A stretch of 23,187 nucleotides of DNA from a virus. The DNA lies in the UHGV virus genome UHGV-0778869; one strand, given 5' to 3'. The translations under genes were made by a program, and so were the position numbers. Below the pieces are notes generated by a model. The model did no database searches, had not been told where the DNA came from, and worked only from the letters and a program-made list of their open reading frames with translations. Below, piece after piece: positions 1 through 23,187 of the stretch (positions are counted from its first letter, which is position 1; every line of letters starts with the position of its first letter).

Positions 1-280
1 AGCCAGTGATTGACGTTTCCACGCTCTGATAAGCCATCAATCATCATTTGCTCATGGTTCCACGTACAGCTCGGAACCAGGGGAATGTGATTAATTCCAG
101 ACATTCGACGTTCTCTGTACCGCGATCAACCAAATCGCCCACCGAGATAAGCAGGTCTTTTTTGGTGTCGAATCCTATCGTCTCCAGTTTTTTCATCAGG
201 TTCGTGTAGCATCCGTGCAGATCGCCAACTACCCAAACATTTCGGTATTTGCTGCCATCAATTCTTTCGTAATAGCGCAT
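1..280 (-). pseudogene. NinI-type Ser/Thr protein phosphatase (calcineurin-like), interrupted by a -1 frameshift
   Basis: Start ATG 280-278; product [25 protein letters not shown]...GDLVDRG...FRAVRG then TMSK-stop at 46-44. The adjacent frame reads [20 protein letters not shown] to the window edge, i.e. the GNHE motif and the rest of the enzyme are out of frame. Confidence 0.8.
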
Positions 281-464
281 CTCTTTCACTCCATCCGCGA
301 TGAACCATGAGAACGTCGTTGACGATGGCGTGCATTTTCCCGTCTTTATCATCAACGTATTTTCTTACCGTGCCGCGACTACATTTCAGTCTGCGTGCTA
401 CTTCTGTCTGGTTTCCGTATGCTTCAACGAGCATGTCTGGAATGGTTTTTACTGAGAACGTCAT
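258..464 (-). CDS. ninH: NinH (68 aa)
   Basis: Product [37 protein letters not shown]... matches lambda NinH as recalled; 23-nt overlap with the phosphatase start as in lambda. Confidence 0.9.
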
Positions 465-1072
465 GCGGCCTCACTTCTGCTATTTCGCAGGTCTTTGAGT
501 TTCTGTTGGTACTCTGCCTTGATCGCCTTGCACTCTTCGATAGTCCAGCGATGGCGGCTATGGTTTGATTCGATTTCGTCTACTGCTTCCTGCCCGATGC
601 GGTTAATCAGTTCGACGCGATACGGAACGAGATTTCCGCTTTTGTGCTGGTTGCACACCACGCATTGCTTGTGAATATTGCGTTCATCAAATCGGAGTTG
701 AGGTGCCGCAGCAGTTGTCCGGTAATGTCCGGCATCCCACTGAGCAGACGTGAGCGTTCCGCACGAGATACATGGTAAGTCGCGGTCTCTTTCTCTGATG
801 AAGGCGTTTACGGCTTGTTGGGCTTGTTTAATCCAGTAACTGCGGGGCTTTAAGGCGAGTTTTCGAATCTTAAGTTTATCTTTCTGTTTCTGATCCTCTC
901 GTCGTCGTTTCTTCTCTGCTGCTTTTTCCGCTTTTTCGCGTTCTTTACTTCGTCGTTCGAGTGCTATCTTTGTTCCACACTCTGGAGAGCACCACCACTG
1001 ATTAGCGAATGCAGGGTGAAACCATTCCCGACATTCATTGTTTTTACATCGTCTTCGCGCTGGTTTAGCCAT
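461..1072 (-). CDS. ninG: NinG / Rap recombination-associated endonuclease (203 aa)
   Basis: Product [41 protein letters not shown]... with Cys-rich motifs, near-identical to lambda NinG as recalled; 4-nt overlap with ninH. Confidence 0.9.
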
Positions 1073-1814: not shown

Positions 1815-2341
1815 GCCGCCATCCTGACGCCCTGCCCGATCGCCATCAATGCCGCTTTGGATACGGTAGTAAACATCCGTCGAGGACTGATGAACGGTCG
1901 CCAAATCAGCAGCATGGAGCCTTTGCTGTTTCCCTTCTTCTCCAGCCCTGTCGATGGTTCGATAAAATTAATCCGTCCATCAGTGATAATACGAACTTCG
2001 TCAACACTCTCCAGAGCCTTGCTGAACCATCCGACTGACATATCCTCTGGCACAAGCATCACTACCGTCTGTCGCTGTTGTATGCACTGCTCAGCGGCTT
2101 TTTCTACCCACGGCCTGATATTGCTGTACGGTGGGTTATTCCAGATTGCACCGTGGCTTACCCACTCAGAATTGAGCGCGTCGTCGGCCTCAGTTAGCCA
2201 GTGAGCGCACAGAGCATTTTTGTCGCTCGCAGCTGAGTCCAGCCAGAATCCAAACTCAATATCCAGTGCATCAAAAAGCCAAAGCGGCGTTTGCCAGCAG
2301 TCTCTAACTTCTTTTGGTGTTTCTGATTTATGCTTAATCAT
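1811..2341 (-). CDS. Phage Dam-family DNA N6-adenine methyltransferase (176 aa)
   Basis: N-terminal [18 protein letters not shown]...LDSAAS and catalytic NPPY ([10 protein letters not shown]) motifs; ATGA overlap with the upstream HNH gene. Confidence 0.8.
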
Positions 2342-2865
2342 TCAACCCTCGCATATTGTCCGTGATATTTGTTGATAGCCTCACTGGCAACCAAACCAGC
2401 AAGCTCAAGATCTTCATAGAACCCAAAATGCAACCGGCCAAAATCTGTGCGCACTTGAACGGCCCATTTATTTTTTTGCTTGTTCCATAAAACATTTTTT
2501 ATTCCAGAACGGCTATTGCACTTAGTTTTCTGATTTCGGCTGTTTGCTATCCGGCTTGCCTCCCTAAGATTTTTTGGGGAATTGTCCAGCCTGTTTCCGT
2601 TAATATGGTCAATATTTTTCAATGGCATTCTTTTGTTGTGCAGCGCAAAAACAACTACGTGAACAAACATCTGAATGCCTGCAAAACACACCTGTCTATA
2701 CCCAGATCCATTTATCGATGTTTTAATTTCATCTCCGGCCCGGTGGCTGTGGTTGGGGTGTTTTAGCGAGTCCTTTTTGTATCTGACTGTATCTCCGTCT
2801 AAATACAGATAATCCTCAATAAGCCGATACCTATCTGACGCTGGCGTATTTGATTTGATAGTCAT
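2338..2865 (-). CDS. HNH endonuclease with AP2-like DNA-binding domain (about 175 aa)
   Basis: HINGNRLDNSPKNLREASRIANSRN motif (HNH_3 type) followed by KNKWAVQVR...GRLHFGFYEDLELAG (AP2-like); start MTIKSN at 2865 overlaps the ninB stop (ATGA). Confidence 0.75.
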   Translation of the reverse strand: MTIKSNTPASDRYRLIEDYLYLDGDTVRYKKDSLKHPNHSHRAGDEIKTSINGSGYRQVCFAGIQMFVHVVVFALHNKRMPLKNIDHINGNRLDNSPKNLREASRIANSRNQKTKCNSRSGIKNVLWNKQKNKWAVQVRTDFGRLHFGFYEDLELAGLVASEAINKYHGQYARVE

Positions 2866-3302
2866 GCAGCCCGATCTCCCCATCGCGCTTTCCATTCGAG
2901 AGCCAGTCGCGCTTCGTCTGACCACTTAACGCCACGCTCTGTACCGAATGCCTGTATAAGCTCTAATAGCTCCGCAAATTCGCTTACACGCATCCTGCTG
3001 GTTGACTGGCCTATTACCACAAAGCCATTCCCGGCAAGGTTAGGAACAACGTCCTGCTGCTTTAATGCAGCTGTAAAAACGCACTTCCAGCTTTCTGCAT
3101 CCAGCCAGCGACCATGCCATTCAACCTGACGAGAGACGTCACCAAGGCAAGCCCAAAGCTTTCGATTCTGGTCTAAGCTGCGGTTGCGTTCCTGAATGGT
3201 TACTACGATTGGTTTGGTTGGGTCTGGAAGGATTTGCTGTACTGCGTGAATAGCATTTTGCTGAAGTGCTGGAGATCGAATTTCAAAGGTCAGTTTTTTC
3301 AT
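2862..3302 (-). CDS. ninB: NinB / Orf recombination mediator (146 aa)
   Basis: From internal ATG at 3302: MKKLTFEIRSPALQQNAIHAVQQILPDPTKPIVVTIQERNRSLDQNRKLWACLGDV..., near-identical to lambda NinB as recalled; SD GAGAGGGAAG upstream. Confidence 0.9.
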   Translation of the reverse strand: MKKLTFEIRSPALQQNAIHAVQQILPDPTKPIVVTIQERNRSLDQNRKLWACLGDVSRQVEWHGRWLDAESWKCVFTAALKQQDVVPNLAGNGFVVIGQSTSRMRVSEFAELLELIQAFGTERGVKWSDEARLALEWKARWGDRAA

Positions 3303-3378: not shown

Positions 3379-4815
3379 TCAGAATCCTCCTTTCTTCTTG
3401 GACTGCGGTTCCTCGCGTTCACGGCGGCGCATTTCAGCAGACTGTTGGTCTGTGTCATAAATAGCGCCATTTGCCTGAATGCAATACACCGTGCCGGTAT
3501 TGCCATGACGATTGAGACGAAGGATTAGTTCTGTTTCACCAGGTGGAACACTGTCATCAAAAGCACCTTCACGATGGATCCCCACCCAATAATCGCAATC
3601 CTGTTCAATCTGCCCTGTATCGCGCGAGTCACTTGGTAATGGGCGTTTATTGGTTCTGCTTTCCAGTGCGCGGTTAAGCTGTGTCAGAAGCACAACAACG
3701 CAATCAAGCTCTTTGGCAAGGTTCTTCAGTCCTTTGGTGATCATGCCGTAAGCAAGGTCGTTGCGATCGGCCTTCTCAGCGGTCATTAGTGTCAGGTAAT
3801 CGACCAGAATCATGCCAACACATCCTTTTTCTCGCTTGATTCGACGGCTTTCGCTGACGATTTGAGCCAGAGATAATCCCGGCGTGTCGTCGATGTATAG
3901 CAGGTCGATTTCACTCAAGCGATTGGCTGTTTCGATCGCCCTGTTGAAGTCACCATCGTAATCACCCTGATAGCCGTCATCAGCGTCATTTGTCGCCGGA
4001 AGGTAAAAAATATTCGGGTTAACACCTGACTTCTGTCCTACCAGTTTTTCCAGTATCTGGTCGCCTGGCATTTCAAGGCTGAACATCAGAGCGGGCTTTT
4101 TCTCATGCACTGCGCAGTTGATTGCCATCTGGCTGTATAGCGTCGTTTTCCCCATCTTAGGGCGAGCGCCAATGACAAACAGAGAGCCTTTCACCAGGCC
4201 TTTCGGTGACAGCATCCTGTCCAGCGATGGGATCCCTGTGCTCATTCCTCGTTGTTCGCCTGACGGATCAAATCGCTTCTCAAGGTCGCTAACCCAGTCT
4301 TCCATGACCTCACCAAATGAGCGAAGGCCGCGACGCGATCCGGTTTTTGCATGGTCTGTCAGTTGCGTGAAAATCGCCTGAATAGCTTCGTACTTCTGCG
4401 TTGCAGTCATTCCGTTGCGGGAATAGAGCAATTCCGTCGCTTCAGTCATGCGGTTGATGGCGTAGCGTTCCATTGCGGTTTCACGAACCTGCATTGCATA
4501 GGCAACGATGTTTGCTGCGCTTGGCGTGTTCTTTGCGATCTCAGCGATATAAGCAAAACCGCCAACAGACGCCGTTAACGATTTACGCTCCAGTTCATCG
4601 AAAAGCGTCAGGCCATCTACTGGCTTTTGCTCACGGTGCATTCTGGTTATTTCTTCGAAAATGATTTTGTGTGGTCGGCTGTAAAATGAATCAGGCTTCA
4701 GCATCGCCAGAACTTTCTGGACGCGCTCACTGCTGTCATCATCCAGAAGCAATCCACCAATCACCGCCTGCTCTGCCTCGATGCTATGGGGCGGCGCATA
4801 AAAATTATCGGTCAT
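3379..4815 (-). CDS. DnaB-type replicative helicase (P22 gene 12-like)
   Basis: ATG at 4815 with GAGGG SD; N-terminal SIEAEQAVIGGLLLD (DnaB N-domain), Walker A GARPKMGKTT, Walker B ILVDYLTLM; overlaps the O-like gene end by 11 nt. Confidence 0.85.
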   Translation of the reverse strand: MTDNFYAPPHSIEAEQAVIGGLLLDDDSSERVQKVLAMLKPDSFYSRPHKIIFEEITRMHREQKPVDGLTLFDELERKSLTASVGGFAYIAEIAKNTPSAANIVAYAMQVRETAMERYAINRMTEATELLYSRNGMTATQKYEAIQAIFTQLTDHAKTGSRRGLRSFGEVMEDWVSDLEKRFDPSGEQRGMSTGIPSLDRMLSPKGLVKGSLFVIGARPKMGKTTLYSQMAINCAVHEKKPALMFSLEMPGDQILEKLVGQKSGVNPNIFYLPATNDADDGYQGDYDGDFNRAIETANRLSEIDLLYIDDTPGLSLAQIVSESRRIKREKGCVGMILVDYLTLMTAEKADRNDLAYGMITKGLKNLAKELDCVVVLLTQLNRALESRTNKRPLPSDSRDTGQIEQDCDYWVGIHREGAFDDSVPPGETELILRLNRHGNTGTVYCIQANGAIYDTDQQSAEMRRREREEPQSKKKGGF

Positions 4816-5877: not shown

Positions 5878-6156
5878 TCAGGCCTCGAAGAATTCGCCGT
5901 TCTTCGGGGCTTTTTCTTTTGTCAGCATTCTGGCTACTTTCTTAGCCAGTTCCGCCAACTCCTCGTCTTCAACACCCCATTCAAGAACAGCAAGAAGCAT
6001 TCCCATTTTGGGGATGAAGCTGTCTTTCCATCGCGAAATTTGCGATTCATTAATCCCTAACGCGTCGGCAACCTTTCGCTGACCACGTACAGCAATTCGA
6101 TTCAGGATGTTGCTTGTAATTGCATTCGCTTTCTTGCGAGTACTTGTAAGTTGCAT
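5878..6156 (-). CDS. cII: CII-like transcriptional activator (P22 C1-like, 92 aa)
   Basis: SQISRWK and MLLAVLEWGV motifs shared with lambda CII; position between cro and O. Confidence 0.85.
   Translation of the reverse strand: MQLTSTRKKANAITSNILNRIAVRGQRKVADALGINESQISRWKDSFIPKMGMLLAVLEWGVEDEELAELAKKVARMLTKEKAPKNGEFFEA
6119..6132 (+). promoter_or_regulatory. Candidate pRE CII-binding site TTGC-N6-TTGC (TTGCTTGTAATTGC)
   Basis: Tandem TTGC tetrads 6 bp apart on the cI-sense strand inside the first codons of the cII-like gene, the lambda pRE arrangement. Confidence 0.6.
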
Positions 6157-6189
6157 ATGTAAGTATTTCCTTAACTAATAAGAAGTTAT

Positions 6190-6207
6190 GCGCATCAACT
6201 TATGCGC
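6190..6207 (-). terminator. Candidate tR1-like hairpin downstream of nutR
   Basis: Minus-strand RNA GCGCAU-AAGUUG-AUGCGC followed by AUAACUUCUUAUUAG; T-run imperfect. Confidence 0.35.
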
Positions 6208-6214
6208 GTTGTAT

Positions 6215-6258
6215 TCCCGCATTTCGGCGGGAATGAGGACCATGACTGTTAAAGAGCG
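6215..6258 (-). promoter_or_regulatory. nutR: boxA CGCTCTTTAACA plus boxB hairpin TCCCGC-CGAAAT-GCGGGA
   Basis: Read on minus strand between cro and cII-like; boxA resembles the E. coli rrn boxA; the identical boxA/boxB pair recurs as nutL. Confidence 0.7.
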
Positions 6259-6264
6259 GTGTTA

Positions 6265-6459
6265 CTATTTGTTTTTCTTGTTGCTTGGGAAAGGACGAAC
6301 TTCCTCTCCAATCACACTGCCATCAGGCTTTACCGTAACCATAATGTTACGGCCTGCCAGAATGGCCTTGCTGATAGCGCACTGGATTACACCAAAGTCA
6401 CTGGCTGCTTTAGCCTGTCCATGGATTTTGGCGTAATCGGCAAGTGTCATTCGAATCAT
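6265..6459 (-). CDS. cro: Cro repressor (lambda Cro fold, 64 aa)
   Basis: ATG 6459 with GGAGAG SD; product ...[41 protein letters not shown] parallels lambda Cro. Confidence 0.85.
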
Positions 6460-8517: not shown

Positions 8518-8742
8518 ATGAATCAGACATACATTCCATCATGCTTGAGAAATCTGCCAAAGCAGAAAGCAAAGCCCCGCAAGCAAGCCATAAAGGACGC
8601 TAAGGCAGAGGTTATTGATCAAGCAATACAATTGCTCAGGGAGGAGTTAAGAAGTGGCAAGCTCGAAGGAATGATGATGCCCTATCAGCGCGGATATCTT
8701 TCGGCGATTAGTAAGCTGGAAGTATTGAAGAGTGAATTATGA
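8518..8742 (+). CDS. Hypothetical protein (74 aa)
   Basis: ATG 8518 after AGGTAAG; MNQTYIPSCLRNLPKQKAKPRKQ...; ATGA overlap with the next gene. No family recognised. Confidence 0.5.
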   Translation: MNQTYIPSCLRNLPKQKAKPRKQAIKDAKAEVIDQAIQLLREELRSGKLEGMMMPYQRGYLSAISKLEVLKSEL

Positions 8743-9431
8743 ACTATCTGGAATTTCCGGATGGTTCATTGTTTTGGCAGCAAACCACTTATTTGAGAGG
8801 AATTAATATGTCATCAATCCGCTTAACTACGAGAATGAAAGAGAAAATCGCTCGTAACGCTTTAATTAAGTCTGGGGTTTTCACTGAGCTTGAAGAAGTA
8901 ACAAAGTTAAAGAGCCAGCTTGCACTTGACGCCAGAGTTATTGCGTTTGGCGGTAAAAAGAAAACTGAGGAAGTGGATCAGTTATCATCCAAGTTAGTAG
9001 CTATAAGTGAAGAACTTGAAAAACTGGGATGTTCATTTTACTCATACGATGTTCGTTCTACTTCAATTTATCTGACTGTATCTGGCAGAAGGGTTGGATG
9101 GCTTTCATATGGGGAAGACGGCAACGGCGAAGATATATTGCTCCCTACTCCGACCAAAGATAAATGCATGTTTGACGCAGAACACGAAATAACAAAAAGG
9201 TTTGATGAAATCTGCGCATTGCAACAAAAACTTGAAGCCAAGAAAAAGGATATCGAATCAAATGTATGGGCTGCTTTGAACTCAGTCACAACAGTTAAGC
9301 GACTTATTGAAGTTTGGTCTGAAAGCAAAGAATTGCTACCAAAAGAAGCAGATAAAGCAAGTACAGCACTTCCTGCTTTACGGGTAGAAGATTTGAATAA
9401 GATGATTGGACTTCCTTCCGAGGCCGCATAG
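8739..9431 (+). CDS. Hypothetical protein (230 aa; alternative start 8808)
   Basis: ORF with coupled start; internal ATG 8808 has a GAGAGG SD; stop lies inside the terminator hairpin. No family recognised. Confidence 0.55.
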   Translation: MNYLEFPDGSLFWQQTTYLRGINMSSIRLTTRMKEKIARNALIKSGVFTELEEVTKLKSQLALDARVIAFGGKKKTEEVDQLSSKLVAISEELEKLGCSFYSYDVRSTSIYLTVSGRRVGWLSYGEDGNGEDILLPTPTKDKCMFDAEHEITKRFDEICALQQKLEAKKKDIESNVWAALNSVTTVKRLIEVWSESKELLPKEADKASTALPALRVEDLNKMIGLPSEAA

Positions 9432-9448: not shown

Positions 9449-9565
9449 CACTAACAACAGAATAAACACAGCACTGTGTATTCATTCCAACGAGTGAATA
9501 CACGGAGCAATGTCGCTCGTAACTAAACAGGAGCCGACTTGTTCTGATTATTGGAAATCTTCTTT

Positions 9566-9594
9566 GCCCTCCAGTGTGAGGGCAATTTTTTTTG
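9566..9594 (+). terminator. Intrinsic terminator immediately upstream of the next gene's RBS
   Basis: Stem GCCCTC / GAGGGC with loop CAGTGT, then AATTTTTTTTG; GGAGG SD follows at 9597. Confidence 0.7.
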
Positions 9595-9605
9595 ATGGAG
9601 GATAT

Positions 9606-10574
9606 ATGAGTGAAGTAACAGATTTAGTTGTTATTGAAAAAGCAAATGCAATGACTGTATTTCAGTCTGCCGACCAGATTGAAGAAATCCTTCAAAAGGT
9701 TGAACGTGAAGTTATGTCCTTTGTGCCTGATATCACAACGGCAAAGGGCAGAAAGGAGATCGCTTCTCTGGCGTATAAAGTTGCGCAGACGAAAACATAT
9801 CTCGATGGTCTTGGCAAAGACCTTGTTGCTGAACTGAAGGAAATTCCAAAGCTAATTGATGCCAACCGCAAGACAGTGCGTGATCGCCTTGATGAGCTGA
9901 AAGCCAAGGCGCGCCAGCCTCTTACTGATTATGAGGAGGAACAGGCACGGATTAAAGCCGAAGAAGAAGCTAAGGCAGCAGCTGAAGCTCTCGCAAAGCA
10001 AATTGAGTCTGACCATGAAATAGCGATTTTGATGGATCGCGAATTTGACCGCCAAAGAGAAGAGGCAAGACTCAAAGCGGAGCAGGAAAAGCGAGAGCAT
10101 GAAGAACGCTTAAAAAGAGAAGCTGAAGAGAAAGCCAGAGCAGAAGCCGAAGCAAAGGCAAAAGCCGAAATTGAAGCAGCAGCAAGGCGAGAAGCAGAAG
10201 CTAAGGCCGCAGCGGAACGTGCAGAGCGTGAACGTATTGAAGCCGAGCAACGAGCACAGCGCGAAGCAAAAGAGGCAGCAGAACGAGCTGAAAGAGAAAA
10301 GCAGGCGGCAATTGAAGCAGAACGCCGAAAAGCACAGGAGGAGGCTGAACGAATCCGGCGCGAGGCTGAAGCAAAAGAGCAAGCAAGAATAGCAGAAGAA
10401 AAAAGAATCAAGGACGAAGAAGAGCGTAGAGCAAAGGATAAAGCTCACCGGAAAGAAGTAAATAACAAAATACTTGCTGACCTTATCAAGGTTGGCGCAT
10501 CAGAAGATGTTGCTAAAAATATCATAACAGCCATCGTAAAAGGCGAAGTATTCGCAACAAAAATAACCTACTAA
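9606..10574 (+). CDS. Hypothetical protein (322 aa): N-terminal globular domain, long Glu/Ala/Lys/Arg-rich coiled-coil, short C-terminal domain
   Basis: ATG 9606 with GGAGG SD; the low-complexity centre (EAEAKAKAEIEAAARREAEAK...) generates several spurious antisense ORFs; sits upstream of the Sak4-like gene. Confidence 0.7.
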   Translation: MSEVTDLVVIEKANAMTVFQSADQIEEILQKVEREVMSFVPDITTAKGRKEIASLAYKVAQTKTYLDGLGKDLVAELKEIPKLIDANRKTVRDRLDELKAKARQPLTDYEEEQARIKAEEEAKAAAEALAKQIESDHEIAILMDREFDRQREEARLKAEQEKREHEERLKREAEEKARAEAEAKAKAEIEAAARREAEAKAAAERAERERIEAEQRAQREAKEAAERAEREKQAAIEAERRKAQEEAERIRREAEAKEQARIAEEKRIKDEEERRAKDKAHRKEVNNKILADLIKVGASEDVAKNIITAIVKGEVFATKITY

Positions 10575-11044: not shown

Positions 11045-11746
11045 ATGGGAACTGCGACATTAATACTCGGTGAATCTGGCACCGGAAAATCAACCAGCAT
11101 GAGAAATATCAATCCAGAGGAAGCAATACTTATAAAACCAATAGGCAAGCAGCTTCCATTTAAATCAAAAGACTGGCTGGCATGGGATGCCAGAGCAAAA
11201 AAAGGAACCGTAGTTACCACTGACAAATGGGACGTAATAGTTGCCGTAATTAAGCGTGCTCACGAATACGGGAAAAGAATCGTTATTGTTGATGACTTCC
11301 AGTATGTGATGAGCAATGAGTTTATGCGCCGCTCAGAAGAAAAATCGTTTGATAAATTCACTGAGATAGGCCGCCACGCATGGGAGGTGATTAAGGCTGC
11401 ACAGGATGCACCTGATGACCTGAGAGTCTATTTTCTTGCGCACACCGAAGAAACCCCTATGGGGCGTGTGAAAATGAAGACTATCGGCAAAATGCTGGAC
11501 GAGAAAATCACTGTCGAAGGCATGTTTACTATAGTTCTTCGCACCCTTACCCGCGATGACCAGTTCTTTTTCACCACGAAAACAACGGTGCAGACACTGT
11601 TAAATCCCCAATGGGAATGTTTGATTCTAATGAGATTGATAACGATCTCTCTTTCGTCGATGCCACTGTTTGTGATTACTACGGCATCAATAATGTTCAT
11701 CAAATTAAGGAAAACGCCGCATGAGCAACGTGATTTTTACTTATAA
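11045..11746 (+). CDS. Sak4-like RecA-fold ATPase (AAA_24-type), probably frameshifted near 11560-11590; intact-frame end would be 11724
   Basis: Walker A GESGTGKST, Walker B IVIVDDF. After ...DQFFFTTK the in-frame tail looks non-protein-like, while the -1 frame reads NNGADTVKSPMGMFDSNEIDNDLSFVDATVCDYYGINNVHQIKENAA and ends in a stop that overlaps the next ATG. Confidence 0.7.
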   Translation: MGTATLILGESGTGKSTSMRNINPEEAILIKPIGKQLPFKSKDWLAWDARAKKGTVVTTDKWDVIVAVIKRAHEYGKRIVIVDDFQYVMSNEFMRRSEEKSFDKFTEIGRHAWEVIKAAQDAPDDLRVYFLAHTEETPMGRVKMKTIGKMLDEKITVEGMFTIVLRTLTRDDQFFFTTKTTVQTLLNPQWECLILMRLITISLSSMPLFVITTASIMFIKLRKTPHEQRDFYL

Positions 11747-14536: not shown

Positions 14537-14563
14537 AACTCGCTAGGGCGAGTTTTGTTTTAT
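14537..14563 (+). terminator. Intrinsic terminator
   Basis: Stem AACTCGC / GCGAGTT with loop TAGG, then TTGTTTTAT; the next gene's SD follows. Confidence 0.7.
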
Positions 14564-18969: not shown

Positions 18970-19236
18970 ATGTACAGCAAATACGACGAGGCGCAGTTTC
19001 ACTTGAGACTTCCGCATGAACTCCACGCGAAAATTAAGCAGCGTGCGAAGATGAATAACAGGTCGCTGAACTCAGAGATAATTGCAGCGATTGAAGAATC
19101 ATTGGCTAAACAAAGCTCTGCATCTGTTTACATTGACGATGCAGAGCGTATGGCAGAACAACAATCTGAGATGGTTAAGAAAATTGTCTTTGATACGCTT
19201 AAGACCATGTATAGCAATAATAAAAAGGAAACATAG
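18970..19236 (+). CDS. mnt: Mnt-like ribbon-helix-helix repressor (about 88 aa)
   Basis: AQFHLRLPHELHAKIKQRAKMNNRSLNSEIIAAIEESL ... DAERMAEQQSEMVKKIVFDTLK parallels P22 Mnt as recalled; start uncertain (ATG 18970 or 18937). Confidence 0.75.
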   Translation: MYSKYDEAQFHLRLPHELHAKIKQRAKMNNRSLNSEIIAAIEESLAKQSSASVYIDDAERMAEQQSEMVKKIVFDTLKTMYSNNKKET

Positions 19237-19306
19237 AAATCTAGTTTCCGGCTAAAATGGCATTGCCTTCATGATATCCTGTGAAAAACTAAGGAGAGTT
19301 AACCAT

Positions 19307-19891: not shown

Positions 19892-21880
19892 CAACGAATC
19901 AGACTTCGCACCCTGCGTCAGTGCATTAATCGCTTTTTGCGCTTGCTGCATGGCTTTCTCAAACGCTGTCGATCCGCGTTGTGTGTTTGCCATTCGTAGC
20001 ATTGCATTTCTGAATGGCTCACTCTCATAGGCGCGAGTAAGAAGTCCGTAGCTTACCGCTGCGCCAGTTGTCGCCGGGTTCATTGCTGTCCCATACCCGA
20101 TAATGAACGGGATGGTTTGCTGCCCTGTTGGTGTTGTTACTGCCGCTTTTGCAGCCTGCTGCGTGGATTGCAGGTAGTTTTTCAATCCTTTCAGATAAGC
20201 AGCGTCCTGCCCCTTAAATGTGATGCCAGTCTGGTTTTGCAGGATGTTAAGCTGTCGAAGGAACTGATCAGGGGAACCCCCTGATTTCTCCATCGCCTTT
20301 CCAATGATGCCATTGCGCATTTGCGCCCTGCCAACACGACCAACTGAGTTATACAGCGTCTTAATTTCCGATTTGTTCTTGCTGAATAGCATGTTGTTGA
20401 CAACTTCCGGCGTCAGATCGCCTTTCATGAGAACATTCTTCAGCCTGGTATTCTTTAGTTTCGCCGCTTCGTTAGCGTAGACGGCATTGGCCTGCTGATA
20501 TTTACGGAGAGTATCGTTGCCAAGATTCTGACCAATGGCACCATTGATATCGTCTGTCATCGCCTTGTAAACGCGCTGAATGGCAGCATCGGAACGGTTT
20601 GGTAACACTGGTCGCTCCCCCTTCACGTCCATTCTGAACTGGCTGCGCAGATCGCTTAATTGCTTCAAATCCAGATTTACCGGACCATCAGGACTAGCAT
20701 TGCGAACAAGCTCATCACGATAGGACTGAAGTTTTGAAATAGTCTCGTTATCAGCAACCTTACCAAGCTTCTGCAGGTTAGATATTTCTGTATCAATCTG
20801 CTGAATTGCTCGCGCAGGCTGAATGTTTACTCCAGCCATAGCATTCTGAACCTGCTCCAGTCGATTACCGGCGGCACGACGAATTCCTGATGTTTTCGCT
20901 TTAAGGCTGTCAATAACAACCGCTGGATCATACTCACCGAATTTATCGGCAAATCTCTGCACCAACTGGCTTCTCGCTTCCTGTTGCGTTGCTCTCATTC
21001 CGCTTGTGCCAGCCAGGGGGATATTTTCTGCTGTAGTCTGCGCCATTTTCCCGACGCGGGAAGTAGGCTGTAACAGGTCTGTGGTGTGCAGAGGAACTCC
21101 TTCACGCTCTGCAAACCTGATAGCCTGTTGAGCTTCTGGTGCTATCGAACCACGAACACCACGATAAGCAGCACCTAATCCACGTCCGGCAGCGTTAATA
21201 GCACCGCCAGCCAGCACACCAACGCCTAAATCGGTGGCGAGTGCTTCCGCATCATCTTTCGCACTGTTTGCAGCAAGTGATCCAACTGCGTTTTCTGCTA
21301 GAAGACGAGTTGCAACCTGAGCAATTCGACCAGCAAGTGTTGGTGCCTGTGTTGCCGCTCTCTCAACGCCAGCAGGAGTGAGGTAAGGCAATGCTTCAGC
21401 AAATACCCTTCCCTCTGTCGTTTGTGGAGTCAGCGCGCCTTGCTGAAGGCCAAAGTCCTGCTCTAATCCCTGCGTTGTTACTCGTGGCGCTGGTTGATAT
21501 GTCCCATCGCCAATTCCGAGTTTACCGCCAGCCCAAGCCGCCGCGCTTGTTACAGCATCGGCAACTGATGCAGGTATGTTTGCCACGTTCACGCCAGCCT
21601 GCACCAGTCCGCGACCAGTTTCTTTCACGGCTTCGCCAAGATCAGACATAAATCCACTTTGCTGTGGTTGTTGCTGTGCTACTGGTTGCTGTGTCTCCAC
21701 TGGCTGCACAGATGGCAATGGATAGGCAGCATAGAAAGCTTGCTTAGCCTGCTCTGCATTTTCTCCGGCTTGCGGGGCAACGACTTCTTTGAAGTATTGC
21801 TCCTGAGCCTGCGCTTTTTGTTCTGGTGCTAACGCCTGATACTGTGGAGAGGCGATAACATCTTTCCATGCTTTAGCCAT
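19883..21880 (-). CDS. Ejection / DNA-transfer protein (P22 gp16 position, 665 aa)
   Basis: Large Ala/Gln/Gly-rich protein upstream of the immI-like region; start overlaps the upstream gene stop (TAATG). Confidence 0.7.
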   Translation of the reverse strand: MAKAWKDVIASPQYQALAPEQKAQAQEQYFKEVVAPQAGENAEQAKQAFYAAYPLPSVQPVETQQPVAQQQPQQSGFMSDLGEAVKETGRGLVQAGVNVANIPASVADAVTSAAAWAGGKLGIGDGTYQPAPRVTTQGLEQDFGLQQGALTPQTTEGRVFAEALPYLTPAGVERAATQAPTLAGRIAQVATRLLAENAVGSLAANSAKDDAEALATDLGVGVLAGGAINAAGRGLGAAYRGVRGSIAPEAQQAIRFAEREGVPLHTTDLLQPTSRVGKMAQTTAENIPLAGTSGMRATQQEARSQLVQRFADKFGEYDPAVVIDSLKAKTSGIRRAAGNRLEQVQNAMAGVNIQPARAIQQIDTEISNLQKLGKVADNETISKLQSYRDELVRNASPDGPVNLDLKQLSDLRSQFRMDVKGERPVLPNRSDAAIQRVYKAMTDDINGAIGQNLGNDTLRKYQQANAVYANEAAKLKNTRLKNVLMKGDLTPEVVNNMLFSKNKSEIKTLYNSVGRVGRAQMRNGIIGKAMEKSGGSPDQFLRQLNILQNQTGITFKGQDAAYLKGLKNYLQSTQQAAKAAVTTPTGQQTIPFIIGYGTAMNPATTGAAVSYGLLTRAYESEPFRNAMLRMANTQRGSTAFEKAMQQAQKAINALTQGAKSDSLSE

Positions 21881-23187
21881 TAATCACCCCATAGTGAAGA
21901 AAAGTTACTGCCAGTAGTAGATTGTTGCCCTGGCATATTCTGCACCGGCTCCTGATAATCAAACTGTTTTTTAACAGTGCTCAACTTGCTTTCAAGCTGA
22001 TTTCTAATCTTTCCGATAGAGTCACGAAAAGCCTTTTCACTCATTTTGGGGCTTAGGGCACCAACCGCATCGGATAATTTTTTACCCTCAGCATCTGAAA
22101 GAGCCCCCATACCCTTAAGGGACTGCACCATAGGAAGGAATGTTTGAGCTTTAAAGGTGTCGAGCCTTGCTTCAAAGTTAGCTGCATCAGAGCCAGGAAC
22201 TGTCGGAAACGCTGAGCGAATTCCTACTGCTTTTGAAAGGCCTGGGCTTTGCTCTATCTCGTTGAGAGAATCAAGCGCTGTGCTGAACGTATCAACTGCA
22301 CCCTGAGCGGCGGCCTGCCTGTCAGCGCGGGCTATGTCAGCCTTTTGCCGAACATCTGCCTGTTTCTGTTTTAGCTCTTCAAGCTTTAACTGATTGCTTT
22401 CTCTGGCTATCTGTCTGTCCAGAGCCTTTTCTTGTAATTCTGCTCTTTGTATTTCTCGGGAAAGAGCAGCATTCTGTGCGCTGATGTTCTGTCCACGTAT
22501 CTGGATGTCCTGACCTCGAGCTGTTAGTGCTTCTCCTGCCTGATTGCTGCGGATTGTCTCTGCCAGTCTGCCTCGGTCAATCTCACGACCAGCCATCTTG
22601 TCCTGAACATTGAAGTAATCAATCGGACCAAGAGCAGCCATTCCAAGGTGATCAACAAACTCACCAAATCCTGAAGGATTCTGCTGATACATCTGAGCAA
22701 CGTTGTTAGGGTCAACACCGACGCGATTCAGTTCCTTGGCGTTGTTTTGCAGCCATGATTGCATTGCTTCTGGAGATGATGATGCAAGGCGAGCGCCAGC
22801 CGCTAAGGTGCCGATAGAATTGCGCTGGTCTTCATCAATGAACCCCATGCCTTTACGAATAGATTCAATCTGGTCTGGATATTGAGTAGCCAACTGACGC
22901 AAAGCTCCGCGATCACCAGACGCATAACCCCTCCGTAGCGTAGTTCCGCCATGCGTAGCGGTGCTGAACGAACGGAAGTGCTCCCGACCGAGCGAGATAC
23001 CCACGAGGAAGCAAGGCGGAGGGCTTTGCCCACACCGCACATAAACGCTTGACTCTGCGCAGCAGTGCCAAACACCGCTTTTTGACCGAGCGACCGAGGG
23101 TGCACGGAGAGAGTGAAGCTGAGCGGAGGATGGCGGATGCGTAGCGTAGGAGCGTGGCTGCGGTGGTCTGAGCATAGCGAAGTCCAC
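21880..23187 (-). CDS. Ejection protein (P22 gp20 position), N-terminus beyond the window edge
   Basis: Open frame to the window edge; residues encoded from about 22900 downward are protein-like (coiled coil, Ala/Gln-rich); the segment 22900-23187 is compositionally anomalous. Confidence 0.6.
   Translation of the reverse strand: MDFAMLRPPQPRSYATHPPSSAQLHSLRAPSVARSKSGVWHCCAESSVYVRCGQSPPPCFLVGISLGREHFRSFSTATHGGTTLRRGYASGDRGALRQLATQYPDQIESIRKGMGFIDEDQRNSIGTLAAGARLASSSPEAMQSWLQNNAKELNRVGVDPNNVAQMYQQNPSGFGEFVDHLGMAALGPIDYFNVQDKMAGREIDRGRLAETIRSNQAGEALTARGQDIQIRGQNISAQNAALSREIQRAELQEKALDRQIARESNQLKLEELKQKQADVRQKADIARADRQAAAQGAVDTFSTALDSLNEIEQSPGLSKAVGIRSAFPTVPGSDAANFEARLDTFKAQTFLPMVQSLKGMGALSDAEGKKLSDAVGALSPKMSEKAFRDSIGKIRNQLESKLSTVKKQFDYQEPVQNMPGQQSTTGSNFSSLWGD

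What the first reader, a model, noticed from the sequence alone, without database searches (positions are those of the whole stretch)
1..280. Frameshifted ninI phosphatase exactly at the GNHE motif
The phosphatase frame stops after [10 protein letters not shown], whereas the next frame continues [20 protein letters not shown], consistent with a single-base deletion relative to lambda ninI. Together with the Sak4-like frameshift this gives two -1 events in 23 kb, suggesting either homopolymer-type sequencing errors or decay of accessory genes.
Basis: partly seen in the sequence, partly recalled or inferred. Interest (0 to 1): 0.4.

Follow-up and report, generated by a model that had tools for sequence, protein, structure and literature searches.

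The report
ninI frameshift, probably a sequencing error
The phage phosphatase gene ninI really is broken by one missing base in this sequence. The break lies 58 bases from the end of an error-prone gut-virome assembly, so it is most likely a sequencing artefact and not biology.

Summary
Observation confirmed. On the minus strand, ninI starts at 280 and reads 74 correct codons. It then reads TMSK and stops at 46-44, while [19 protein letters not shown] continues in the next frame. The cause is one A missing from GGAAAC (A3 to A2, + strand TT at 58-59), at Asn75 of the GNHE motif. The second frameshift is also real: the Sak4-like ATPase has A4 instead of A5 at 11579-11582.

No relative shares the ninI deletion in the phage records, 5,426 E. 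coli genomes, IMG/VR, GTDB genomes or JGI metagenomes.

Two other assemblies hold the same phage genotype: Logan ERR975140 and NCBI CYGL01 ("Assembly HumMal", apparently the 454-sequenced Malawian twin viromes). They show no substitutions against the window outside one 90-nt patch. Apart from that patch and noisy contig ends, they differ from the window only by single-base length changes in short runs. Each assembly has its own broken genes, including essential ones. Both other assemblies read the Sak4-like gene intact. At ninI the Logan contig stops at window 79, and the CYGL contig turns into indel noise over the same last 55 bases. The window's other end is chimeric.

Verdict: known gene, ordinary position, and the frameshift is most likely a homopolymer or contig-end error (about 0.8). 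A real null allele is not excluded (about 0.15).

The parts
1..280 (-). 5' part of ninI (lambda Ser/Thr phosphatase homologue). Codons 1-74 are in frame (59-280). The rest is shifted by one base and cut by the window edge.
   Evidence: PDB 1G5B match of residues 1-93 after repair. Pfam Metallophos PF00149. Annotated as serine/threonine protein phosphatase / NinI in relatives.
58..59 (-). Frameshift site. The coding strand has AA where lambda, WCHEC025943 and every other relative examined have AAA (GGAAAC). It removes Asn75 of GNHE from the frame.
   Evidence: The 40 best hits listed in each span one base more than the query. 124 of 124 fetched loci carry the extra base, though 120 of these were selected for the intact pattern.
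44..46 (-). Premature TGA that ends the 78-codon ORF (…[10 protein letters not shown]).
212..226 (-). Phosphoesterase motif I, GDLHG (residues 19-23), in frame.
   Evidence: Translation, aligned to 1G5B.
119..139 (-). Phosphoesterase motif II, GDLVDRG (residues 48-54), in frame.
   Evidence: Translation, aligned to 1G5B.
258..464 (-). ninH, intact. It overlaps the ninI start by 23 nt, as in lambda.
461..1072 (-). ninG, intact. This exact allele is on record in only three contigs (two Logan ERR97513x/4x contigs and one CYGL01 contig).
11579..11582 (+). Second private frameshift. There is an A4 run in the Sak4-like ATPase gene (11045-11746) where relatives, and both other assemblies of the same phage, have A5.
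   Evidence: Pfam AAA_24. The gene is intact at 226 aa in L129 and L130.
4005..4010 (.). Control site. There is an A6 run in the DnaB-like helicase gene. The window is intact here, but the Logan assembly of the same phage reads A5 and splits the helicase.
22928..23187 (.). Unrelated GC-rich 260 nt that replaces the N-terminus of the gp20-like injection gene. This is a chimeric contig end.

Best explanation
The locus is an ordinary ninI gene (lambda-type Ser/Thr phosphatase) in the ninG-ninH-ninI block of a P22/Sf6-like temperate phage with a lambda-type integrase. The one-base loss at 58-59 is most likely an under-called homopolymer in a low-coverage contig end, so the phage probably has an intact ninI. 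The assembly appears to come from pyrosequenced (454), amplified gut-virome DNA. Shown: the deletion; its uniqueness; the existence of two other assemblies of the same genotype that differ from the window mainly by single-base run-length changes; and the breakdown of all assemblies within about 100 nt of this site. Inferred: that window position 1 is a contig end; that the data are the 454 Malawian-twin viromes; and that the base is present in the real phage.
For: (1) A 30/31-mer test finds no sequence with the deletion in IMG/VR, GTDB genomes, JGI metagenomes, 5,426 E. coli genomes or INPHARED phages. The intact 31-mer occurs in at least 120 IMG/VR contigs. The 78-aa product is not on record.
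(2) Logan contig ERR975140_63 equals window 79-22927 with 0 substitutions. It differs only at two A runs: 4005-4010, where Logan is wrong and its DnaB is split, and 11579-11582, where the window is wrong.
(3) The NCBI CYGL01 contigs of the same genotype have further private single-base run-length indels. One of them splits the essential gp16 injection gene. Essential genes broken in one assembly and intact in another point to artefact, not biology.
(4) At ninI the Logan contig ends at window 79. CYGL01001796.1 carries 9 differences from the window within window 11-55 and ends about 20 nt past window position 1. It also under-calls a second GTGGAAAC to GTGGAAC 45 nt downstream, in the same sequence context.
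(5) There are signs of chimeric contig ends. The window's last 260 nt are foreign. CYGL01000178.1 starts with a 205-nt inverted copy of window 6118-6322.
(6) CYGL01 is titled 'Assembly HumMal, Ma_F259_Contig_…' (PMC10888812). The Malawian twin virome study used 454 pyrosequencing (PMC8672519).
(7) ninI is normally kept intact: 110 of 113 complete copies among fetched loci.
Against: A3 is a short run, and 454 under-calls are rarer there than in long runs. The only other assembly that covers the site (CYGL01001796.1) also reads GGAACC, though inside a noisy tail and probably from the same reads. Window 1-57 is otherwise identical to the E. coli WCHEC025943 copy, so the consensus there is not generally poor. 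ninI is dispensable in lambda (established knowledge: the nin5 deletion removes it), so a real null allele would be tolerated. About 3 of 113 related copies are disrupted. A homopolymer context fits real slippage mutations as well as errors. No reads could be inspected.
Confidence: 0.8

Rival explanations
1. The deletion is real. This phage carries a ninI null allele, a recent private slippage mutation. It makes a 78-residue fragment with motifs I and II but without Asn75/His76 and the C-terminal metal ligands, so there is no phosphatase activity. The phage remains viable because ninI is accessory.
For: CYGL01001796.1 also reads GGAACC at the site. Window 1-57 is clean. About 3 of 113 related copies are disrupted, so natural loss may occur. 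Dispensability of ninI in lambda is established knowledge (nin5 deletion).
Against: No other record in five collections shares it. The companion Sak4 frameshift is contradicted by two assemblies of the same genotype. The site sits where the Logan and CYGL assemblies lose support, about 58 nt from the window's end. The flanks are 100% identical to an intact copy, so there is no further decay.
Confidence: 0.15
2. The first ~78 nt of the window come from a different co-occurring lambdoid phage or a minority variant, joined at a shared ninI repeat. The frameshift would then belong to another genome or subpopulation.
For: The Logan contig ends at 79, as expected at a branch in an assembly graph. 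The window's other end is demonstrably chimeric. The ninI-Q-lysis module is shared among many lambdoid phages.
Against: No sequence difference marks a junction. Window 1-460 matches one E. coli copy perfectly apart from the gap. The CYGL contig runs through the same point.
Confidence: 0.04
3. Programmed recoding: a -1 ribosomal frameshift or transcriptional slippage at GGAACC restores full-length NinI.
For: A -1 shift after GGA would read AAC CAT GAG (N H E), which can be read directly from the sequence.
Against: There is no X XXY YYZ slippery heptamer, and the A run is only 2 nt long, far too short for transcriptional slippage. No relative has this arrangement; all encode NinI in one frame.
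Confidence: 0.01

Closest known systems
Bacteriophage lambda NinI (Nin221, lambda protein phosphatase, PDB 1G5B)
   Same: The 93 N-terminal residues (after restoring one base) align without gaps to residues 1-93 of 1G5B, with 7 substitutions (E = 3.8e-59). Window 1-460 is 96.5% identical in DNA to lambda. The position after ninG-ninH is the same, with the same 23-nt ninH/ninI overlap.
   Different: As written, the frame is lost at Asn75. The rest of the gene (residues 97-221) and the downstream Q gene lie outside the window.
ninI of the E. coli WCHEC025943 prophage (WP_100728191.1) and of Shigella phage Sf6 gene 58
   Same: The WCHEC025943 copy is identical to window 1-460 except for the one base. 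Sf6 is 98.5% identical here and is the best overall phage relative of the window.
   Different: Both are intact 223-aa genes.
Homopolymer-length errors of pyrosequencing assemblies
   Same: These are single-base losses in A runs. Assemblies of the same genotype disagree mainly in run lengths and have noisy contig ends.
   Different: The run at ninI has only 3 bases, at the short end of what such errors usually affect. The platform is inferred from the assembly title and a review table, not from the reads.

Membership tests
Lambda-type Ser/Thr phosphatase NinI (PPP / Metallophos, PF00149) | Sequence homology to lambda phosphatase | tested here: met
   The repaired N-terminus matches 1G5B residues 1-93, E = 3.8e-59. 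Pfam Metallophos E = 1.4e-14.
Lambda-type Ser/Thr phosphatase NinI (PPP / Metallophos, PF00149) | Motif I GDxHG and motif II GDxxDRG in frame | tested here: met
   GDLHG at 212-226 and GDLVDRG at 119-139, minus strand.
Lambda-type Ser/Thr phosphatase NinI (PPP / Metallophos, PF00149) | Motif III GNHE (Asn75 metal ligand, His76 catalytic) in the same frame | tested here: not met
   G74 is in frame, but N-H-E is in the neighbouring frame because one A is missing. This is true of the sequence as given and is probably not true of the phage.
Lambda-type Ser/Thr phosphatase NinI (PPP / Metallophos, PF00149) | C-terminal metal ligands (His139, His186 in lambda phosphatase numbering, from established knowledge of 1G5B) | not testable with these tools
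   The gene runs off the left edge of the window at about codon 96.
Lambda-type Ser/Thr phosphatase NinI (PPP / Metallophos, PF00149) | Position in the nin region, after ninG and ninH and before Q | tested here: met
   ninG 461-1072 and ninH 258-464 lie upstream, in the same order as lambda and WCHEC025943. Q is outside the window.
Programmed frameshift / transcriptional slippage site | Slippery heptamer, or a long homopolymer, at the shift site | tested here: not met
   The site is GTGGAACCATG with only an A2 run.
Programmed frameshift / transcriptional slippage site | Two-frame arrangement conserved in relatives | tested here: not met
   No record has the junction. 110 of 113 related copies are single-frame and intact.
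Homopolymer sequencing / assembly artefact | Indel lies in a homopolymer and is private to the assembly | tested here: met
   A3 to A2. It is absent from all collections.
Homopolymer sequencing / assembly artefact | Independent assemblies of the same genotype disagree in run lengths and not by substitutions | tested here: met
   Window vs Logan ERR975140_63: 0 substitutions and 2 A-run differences in 22.8 kb. The CYGL contigs add their own run-length indels.
Homopolymer sequencing / assembly artefact | Site lies in a poorly supported region (contig end or coverage drop) | tested here: met
   The Logan contig ends at window 79. The CYGL contig is noise over window 11-55 and ends about 20 nt beyond window position 1.
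Homopolymer sequencing / assembly artefact | Reads at the site disagree or have low quality | not testable with these tools
   There is no access to the reads of ERR975139 or ERR975140.

The most novel reading that the evidence does not exclude
The deletion is real. A temperate P22/Sf6-like phage from a child's gut would then be released as virions while carrying a private ninI null allele. That would show that the phosphatase is dispensable in the wild. It would leave about 430 nt untranslated in front of Q, whose start overlaps the ninI stop in relatives. The overlap is 10 nt in WCHEC025943 and 4 nt in lambda. This could lower Q expression and delay lysis through loss of translational coupling.
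Probability: 0.12. Interest if true: 0.15.

Novelty: not a real feature. Interest (0 to 1): 0.06.

Why it matters
It matters mainly as quality control. This window comes from an assembly with homopolymer errors and chimeric ends. Frameshifts and odd junctions in it, including the Sak4-like one and the 260-nt tail, should not be read as gene decay or new biology without read support. If the deletion were real, it would be one more private loss of a well-known accessory gene and of minor interest.

Tried and rejected
1. I looked for the window's own source and for relatives with the deletion. Exact junction patterns were run in IMG/VR, GTDB genomes and JGI metagenomes. Short-junction megablast was run in E. 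coli genomes and phages. An exact look-up of the 78-aa product was also done. All were empty.
2. The look-up of the 704-aa tailspike ORF failed. The ORF as listed probably starts upstream of the real start, because sister contigs aa.
3. Literature searches for the run and assembly accessions gave only the CYGL01 title. The Reyes 2015 paper is not held. A search for 'HumMal'/PRJEB9818 returned only unrelated papers.
4. Programmed frameshifting was considered and rejected on sequence and conservation.
5. Other private indels flagged (1639/1641, 7843, 9598, 12295, 14551-14562, 15007) lie at mosaic junctions or in divergent or intergenic stretches. They do not break conserved ORFs.
6. Frameshift calls involving locus L126 reflect that record's own many frameshifts.
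7. The Rfam scan of the window found nothing.
8. I could not reach the far end of the Logan contig to see whether it re-enters ninI from the Q side.

Full report
**What is in the sequence**

The feature lies on the minus strand. ninI starts at ATG 280-278, behind a GGAG-type ribosome site, and overlaps the end of ninH (258-464) by 23 nt. It reads 74 codons that match lambda phosphatase, then T-M-S-K and TGA at 46-44. The neighbouring frame carries [19 protein letters not shown] to the window edge.

A three-way DNA alignment with lambda and with the closest E. coli prophage copy (strain WCHEC025943) shows a single gap. GGAAAC is GGAAC in the window, which is TT at 58-59 on the + strand. The E. 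coli copy is otherwise identical over window 1-460.

With the base restored, the 93 visible residues align end to end with PDB 1G5B residues 1-93 (E = 3.8e-59). The shift therefore falls on Asn75 of the G74-N75-H76-E77 motif. Motifs GDLHG (212-226) and GDLVDRG (119-139) are in frame. Pfam Metallophos matches profile positions 2-55 in the truncated ORF and 2-74 in the repaired one.

**Context**

The window is a mosaic temperate phage, reversed relative to the lambda map.
- It carries ninI-ninH-ninG-ninF-…-ninB, a DnaB-type helicase, a replication gene, cII, cro and cI.
- It continues with the early-left genes including a Sak4-like ATPase, then xis and a lambda-type int.
- It ends with an attP region, a P22-type tailspike and the gp16/gp20-type injection genes.
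- Sf6 is the best overall phage relative, with 49% of the window at 96% identity. No record in the phage or E. coli collections holds the whole window.
- The int-tailspike adjacency shows the non-integrated (phage) arrangement.

**Is the deletion shared?**

No.
- The 40 best hits listed from the phage collection and the 40 best from the E. coli collection all span one base more than the query.
- A 30-mer and a 22-mer across the junction are absent from IMG/VR and from one genome per GTDB species. The 22-mer is also absent from JGI metagenomes.
- A 46-nt junction query that can only seed if the deletion is present finds nothing in 5,426 complete E. coli genomes or in 50,697 phage records.
- The intact 31-mer is in at least 120 IMG/VR contigs.
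- The 78-aa product is not on record among 153 billion gene positions.
- Among fetched loci with a complete ninI, 110 of 113 are intact. The gene is normally maintained. This sample was selected for the intact junction, so it only measures other kinds of damage.

**The second frameshift**

The Sak4-like ATPase (11045-11746, Pfam AAA_24) has A4 at 11579-11582 where relatives have A5. Its last ~50 residues are out of frame. A blastx scan of the whole window against ORFs from 128 related loci found no further frameshift that is private to the window. The other signals come from one noisy comparison record or from non-coding polymorphic runs.

**The decisive comparison**

Exact-protein look-ups with two window proteins led to other assemblies of the same phage genotype. 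These are Logan contig ERR975140_63 (37.5 kb), Logan ERR975139_192 (1.8 kb), and NCBI GCA_001292545.1 contigs CYGL01000178.1 and CYGL01001796.1.

- The Logan 37.5-kb contig equals window 79-22927 with no substitution at all. It differs at two A runs only. At 4005-4010 the window has A6 like all relatives, while Logan has A5 and a split helicase. At 11579-11582 Logan has A5 and an intact 226-aa Sak4-like gene, while the window has A4.
- The CYGL contigs also read A5 at the Sak4 site.
- The CYGL contigs carry their own private one-base indels, for example an extra C at 20850 that splits the gp16 injection gene. They also have a 90-nt patch of differences (19185-19274) and noisy ends.
- Each assembly of one genotype therefore has a different set of broken genes, including genes a virion-forming phage needs. 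That pattern indicates sequencing error, not gene decay.

**What happens at ninI in those assemblies**

- The Logan contig ends at window 79, 20 nt short of the site.
- ERR975139_192 ends at 139.
- CYGL01001796.1 runs through the site and also reads GGAACC. From there to its end, about 20 nt beyond window position 1, it is riddled with insertions and deletions: 9 differences from the window within window 11-55.
- Those errors include a second GTGGAAAC read as GTGGAAC 45 nt further on, in the same sequence context.
- The Logan and CYGL assemblies thus lose support within about 100 nt of each other. The window starts 2 nt inside the last base of the CYGL contig that aligns to it.
- I infer that window position 1 is a contig end, and that the last ~80 nt rest on very few read tails.

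**Nature of the data**

One paper's table lists CYGL01000085.1 as "Assembly HumMal, Ma_F259_Contig_623" (PMC10888812). That title fits the Malawian twin gut virome study. A systematic review lists that study as 454 pyrosequencing (PMC8672519). The link between the two is my inference, because the original paper is not held.

Internal evidence agrees with amplified, pyrosequenced virome DNA.
- Disagreements are almost all run-length differences.
- CYGL01000178.1 begins with a 205-nt inverted copy of window 6118-6322.
- The window's last 260 nt (22928-23187, 62% GC) replace the N-terminus of the gp20-like gene with unrelated sequence.
- The only relative of that tail is a GC-rich repeat island in an unverified faecal phage scaffold.

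**Weighing the explanations**

A homopolymer context does not by itself separate error from real slippage. Several points favour a real allele:
- the run has only 3 bases;
- the CYGL contig shares the reading;
- window 1-57 is otherwise clean;
- ninI is dispensable in lambda (established knowledge: the nin5 deletion);
- a few percent of related copies are disrupted.

Several points favour error:
- the assembly has a demonstrated error of the same kind (Sak4-like);
- sister assemblies have their own errors;
- the site lies in the one place where every assembly fails;
- the sister contig shows the same under-call in the same context nearby;
- no relative shares the deletion;
- there is no other sign of decay around it.

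I put sequencing or assembly error at about 0.8, a real private null allele at about 0.15, a chimeric or minority-variant join at about 0.04, and programmed recoding at about 0.01. Recoding is unlikely because there is no slippery site, the A run is only 2 nt, and the arrangement is not conserved.

**If it were real**

The product would be a 78-residue fragment with two of the metal-binding motifs. It would lack Asn75, His76 and the C-terminal ligands, so it would be inactive. In relatives the ninI stop overlaps the Q start, by 10 nt in WCHEC025943 and 4 nt in lambda. Early termination could therefore also weaken translational coupling to Q. This is inference and cannot be examined, because Q lies outside the window.

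**Verdict**

The gene is a known one in its usual place. The frameshift is most likely not a property of the phage. Interest is low.

Noticed in passing
window 22928-23187: The last 260 nt (62% GC vs 46% for the window) are unrelated to the gp20-like injection gene they interrupt. The Logan contig of the same phage continues normally at this point. The only similar sequence found is a GC-rich repetitive ~2-kb island in an unverified human faecal phage scaffold (MT836516.1), matched in permuted order as for a tandem repeat unit. It is probably a chimeric contig end.
   Followed up: partly
window 11045-11746 (site 11579-11582): The Sak4-like ATPase (Pfam AAA_24) is frameshifted by A5 to A4. Two other assemblies of the same phage genotype read A5 and have an intact 226-aa gene, so this one is almost certainly an assembly error.
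   Followed up: yes
window 4005-4010; L129 152-1587; L130 15660-17658: Sister assemblies of the same phage have their own private one-base indels that split essential genes: the DnaB-like helicase in Logan ERR975140_63 and the gp16 injection protein in CYGL01000178.1. The window is intact at those sites.
   Followed up: yes
L130 1-205 (CYGL01000178.1) vs window 6118-6322: The NCBI contig starts with a 205-nt inverted copy of the cro/cI region. This is the kind of inverted chimera produced by multiple-displacement amplification.
   Followed up: no
window 2338-2925: An HNH-type endonuclease ORF (Pfam HNH_3 in the sister contigs) sits between the Dam-type methyltransferase and ninB. The closest E. 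coli nin regions fetched lack it there, so it is a likely mobile insertion.
   Followed up: no
window 19185-19274: There is a cluster of 8 differences within 90 nt between the window and CYGL01000178.1, at the end of the Arc/Mnt-like gene and the intergenic stretch after it (the sister contigs vs 88 aa here). The Logan contig agrees with the window. It is either another noisy patch in the CYGL assembly or a real variant.
   Followed up: no
window 8739-9431: There is a 230-aa ORF with Pfam Nmad5 (putative nucleotide-modification protein, per the sister-contig annotation) in the early-left operon, next to a TolA-like coiled-coil ORF at 9510-10574.
   Followed up: no
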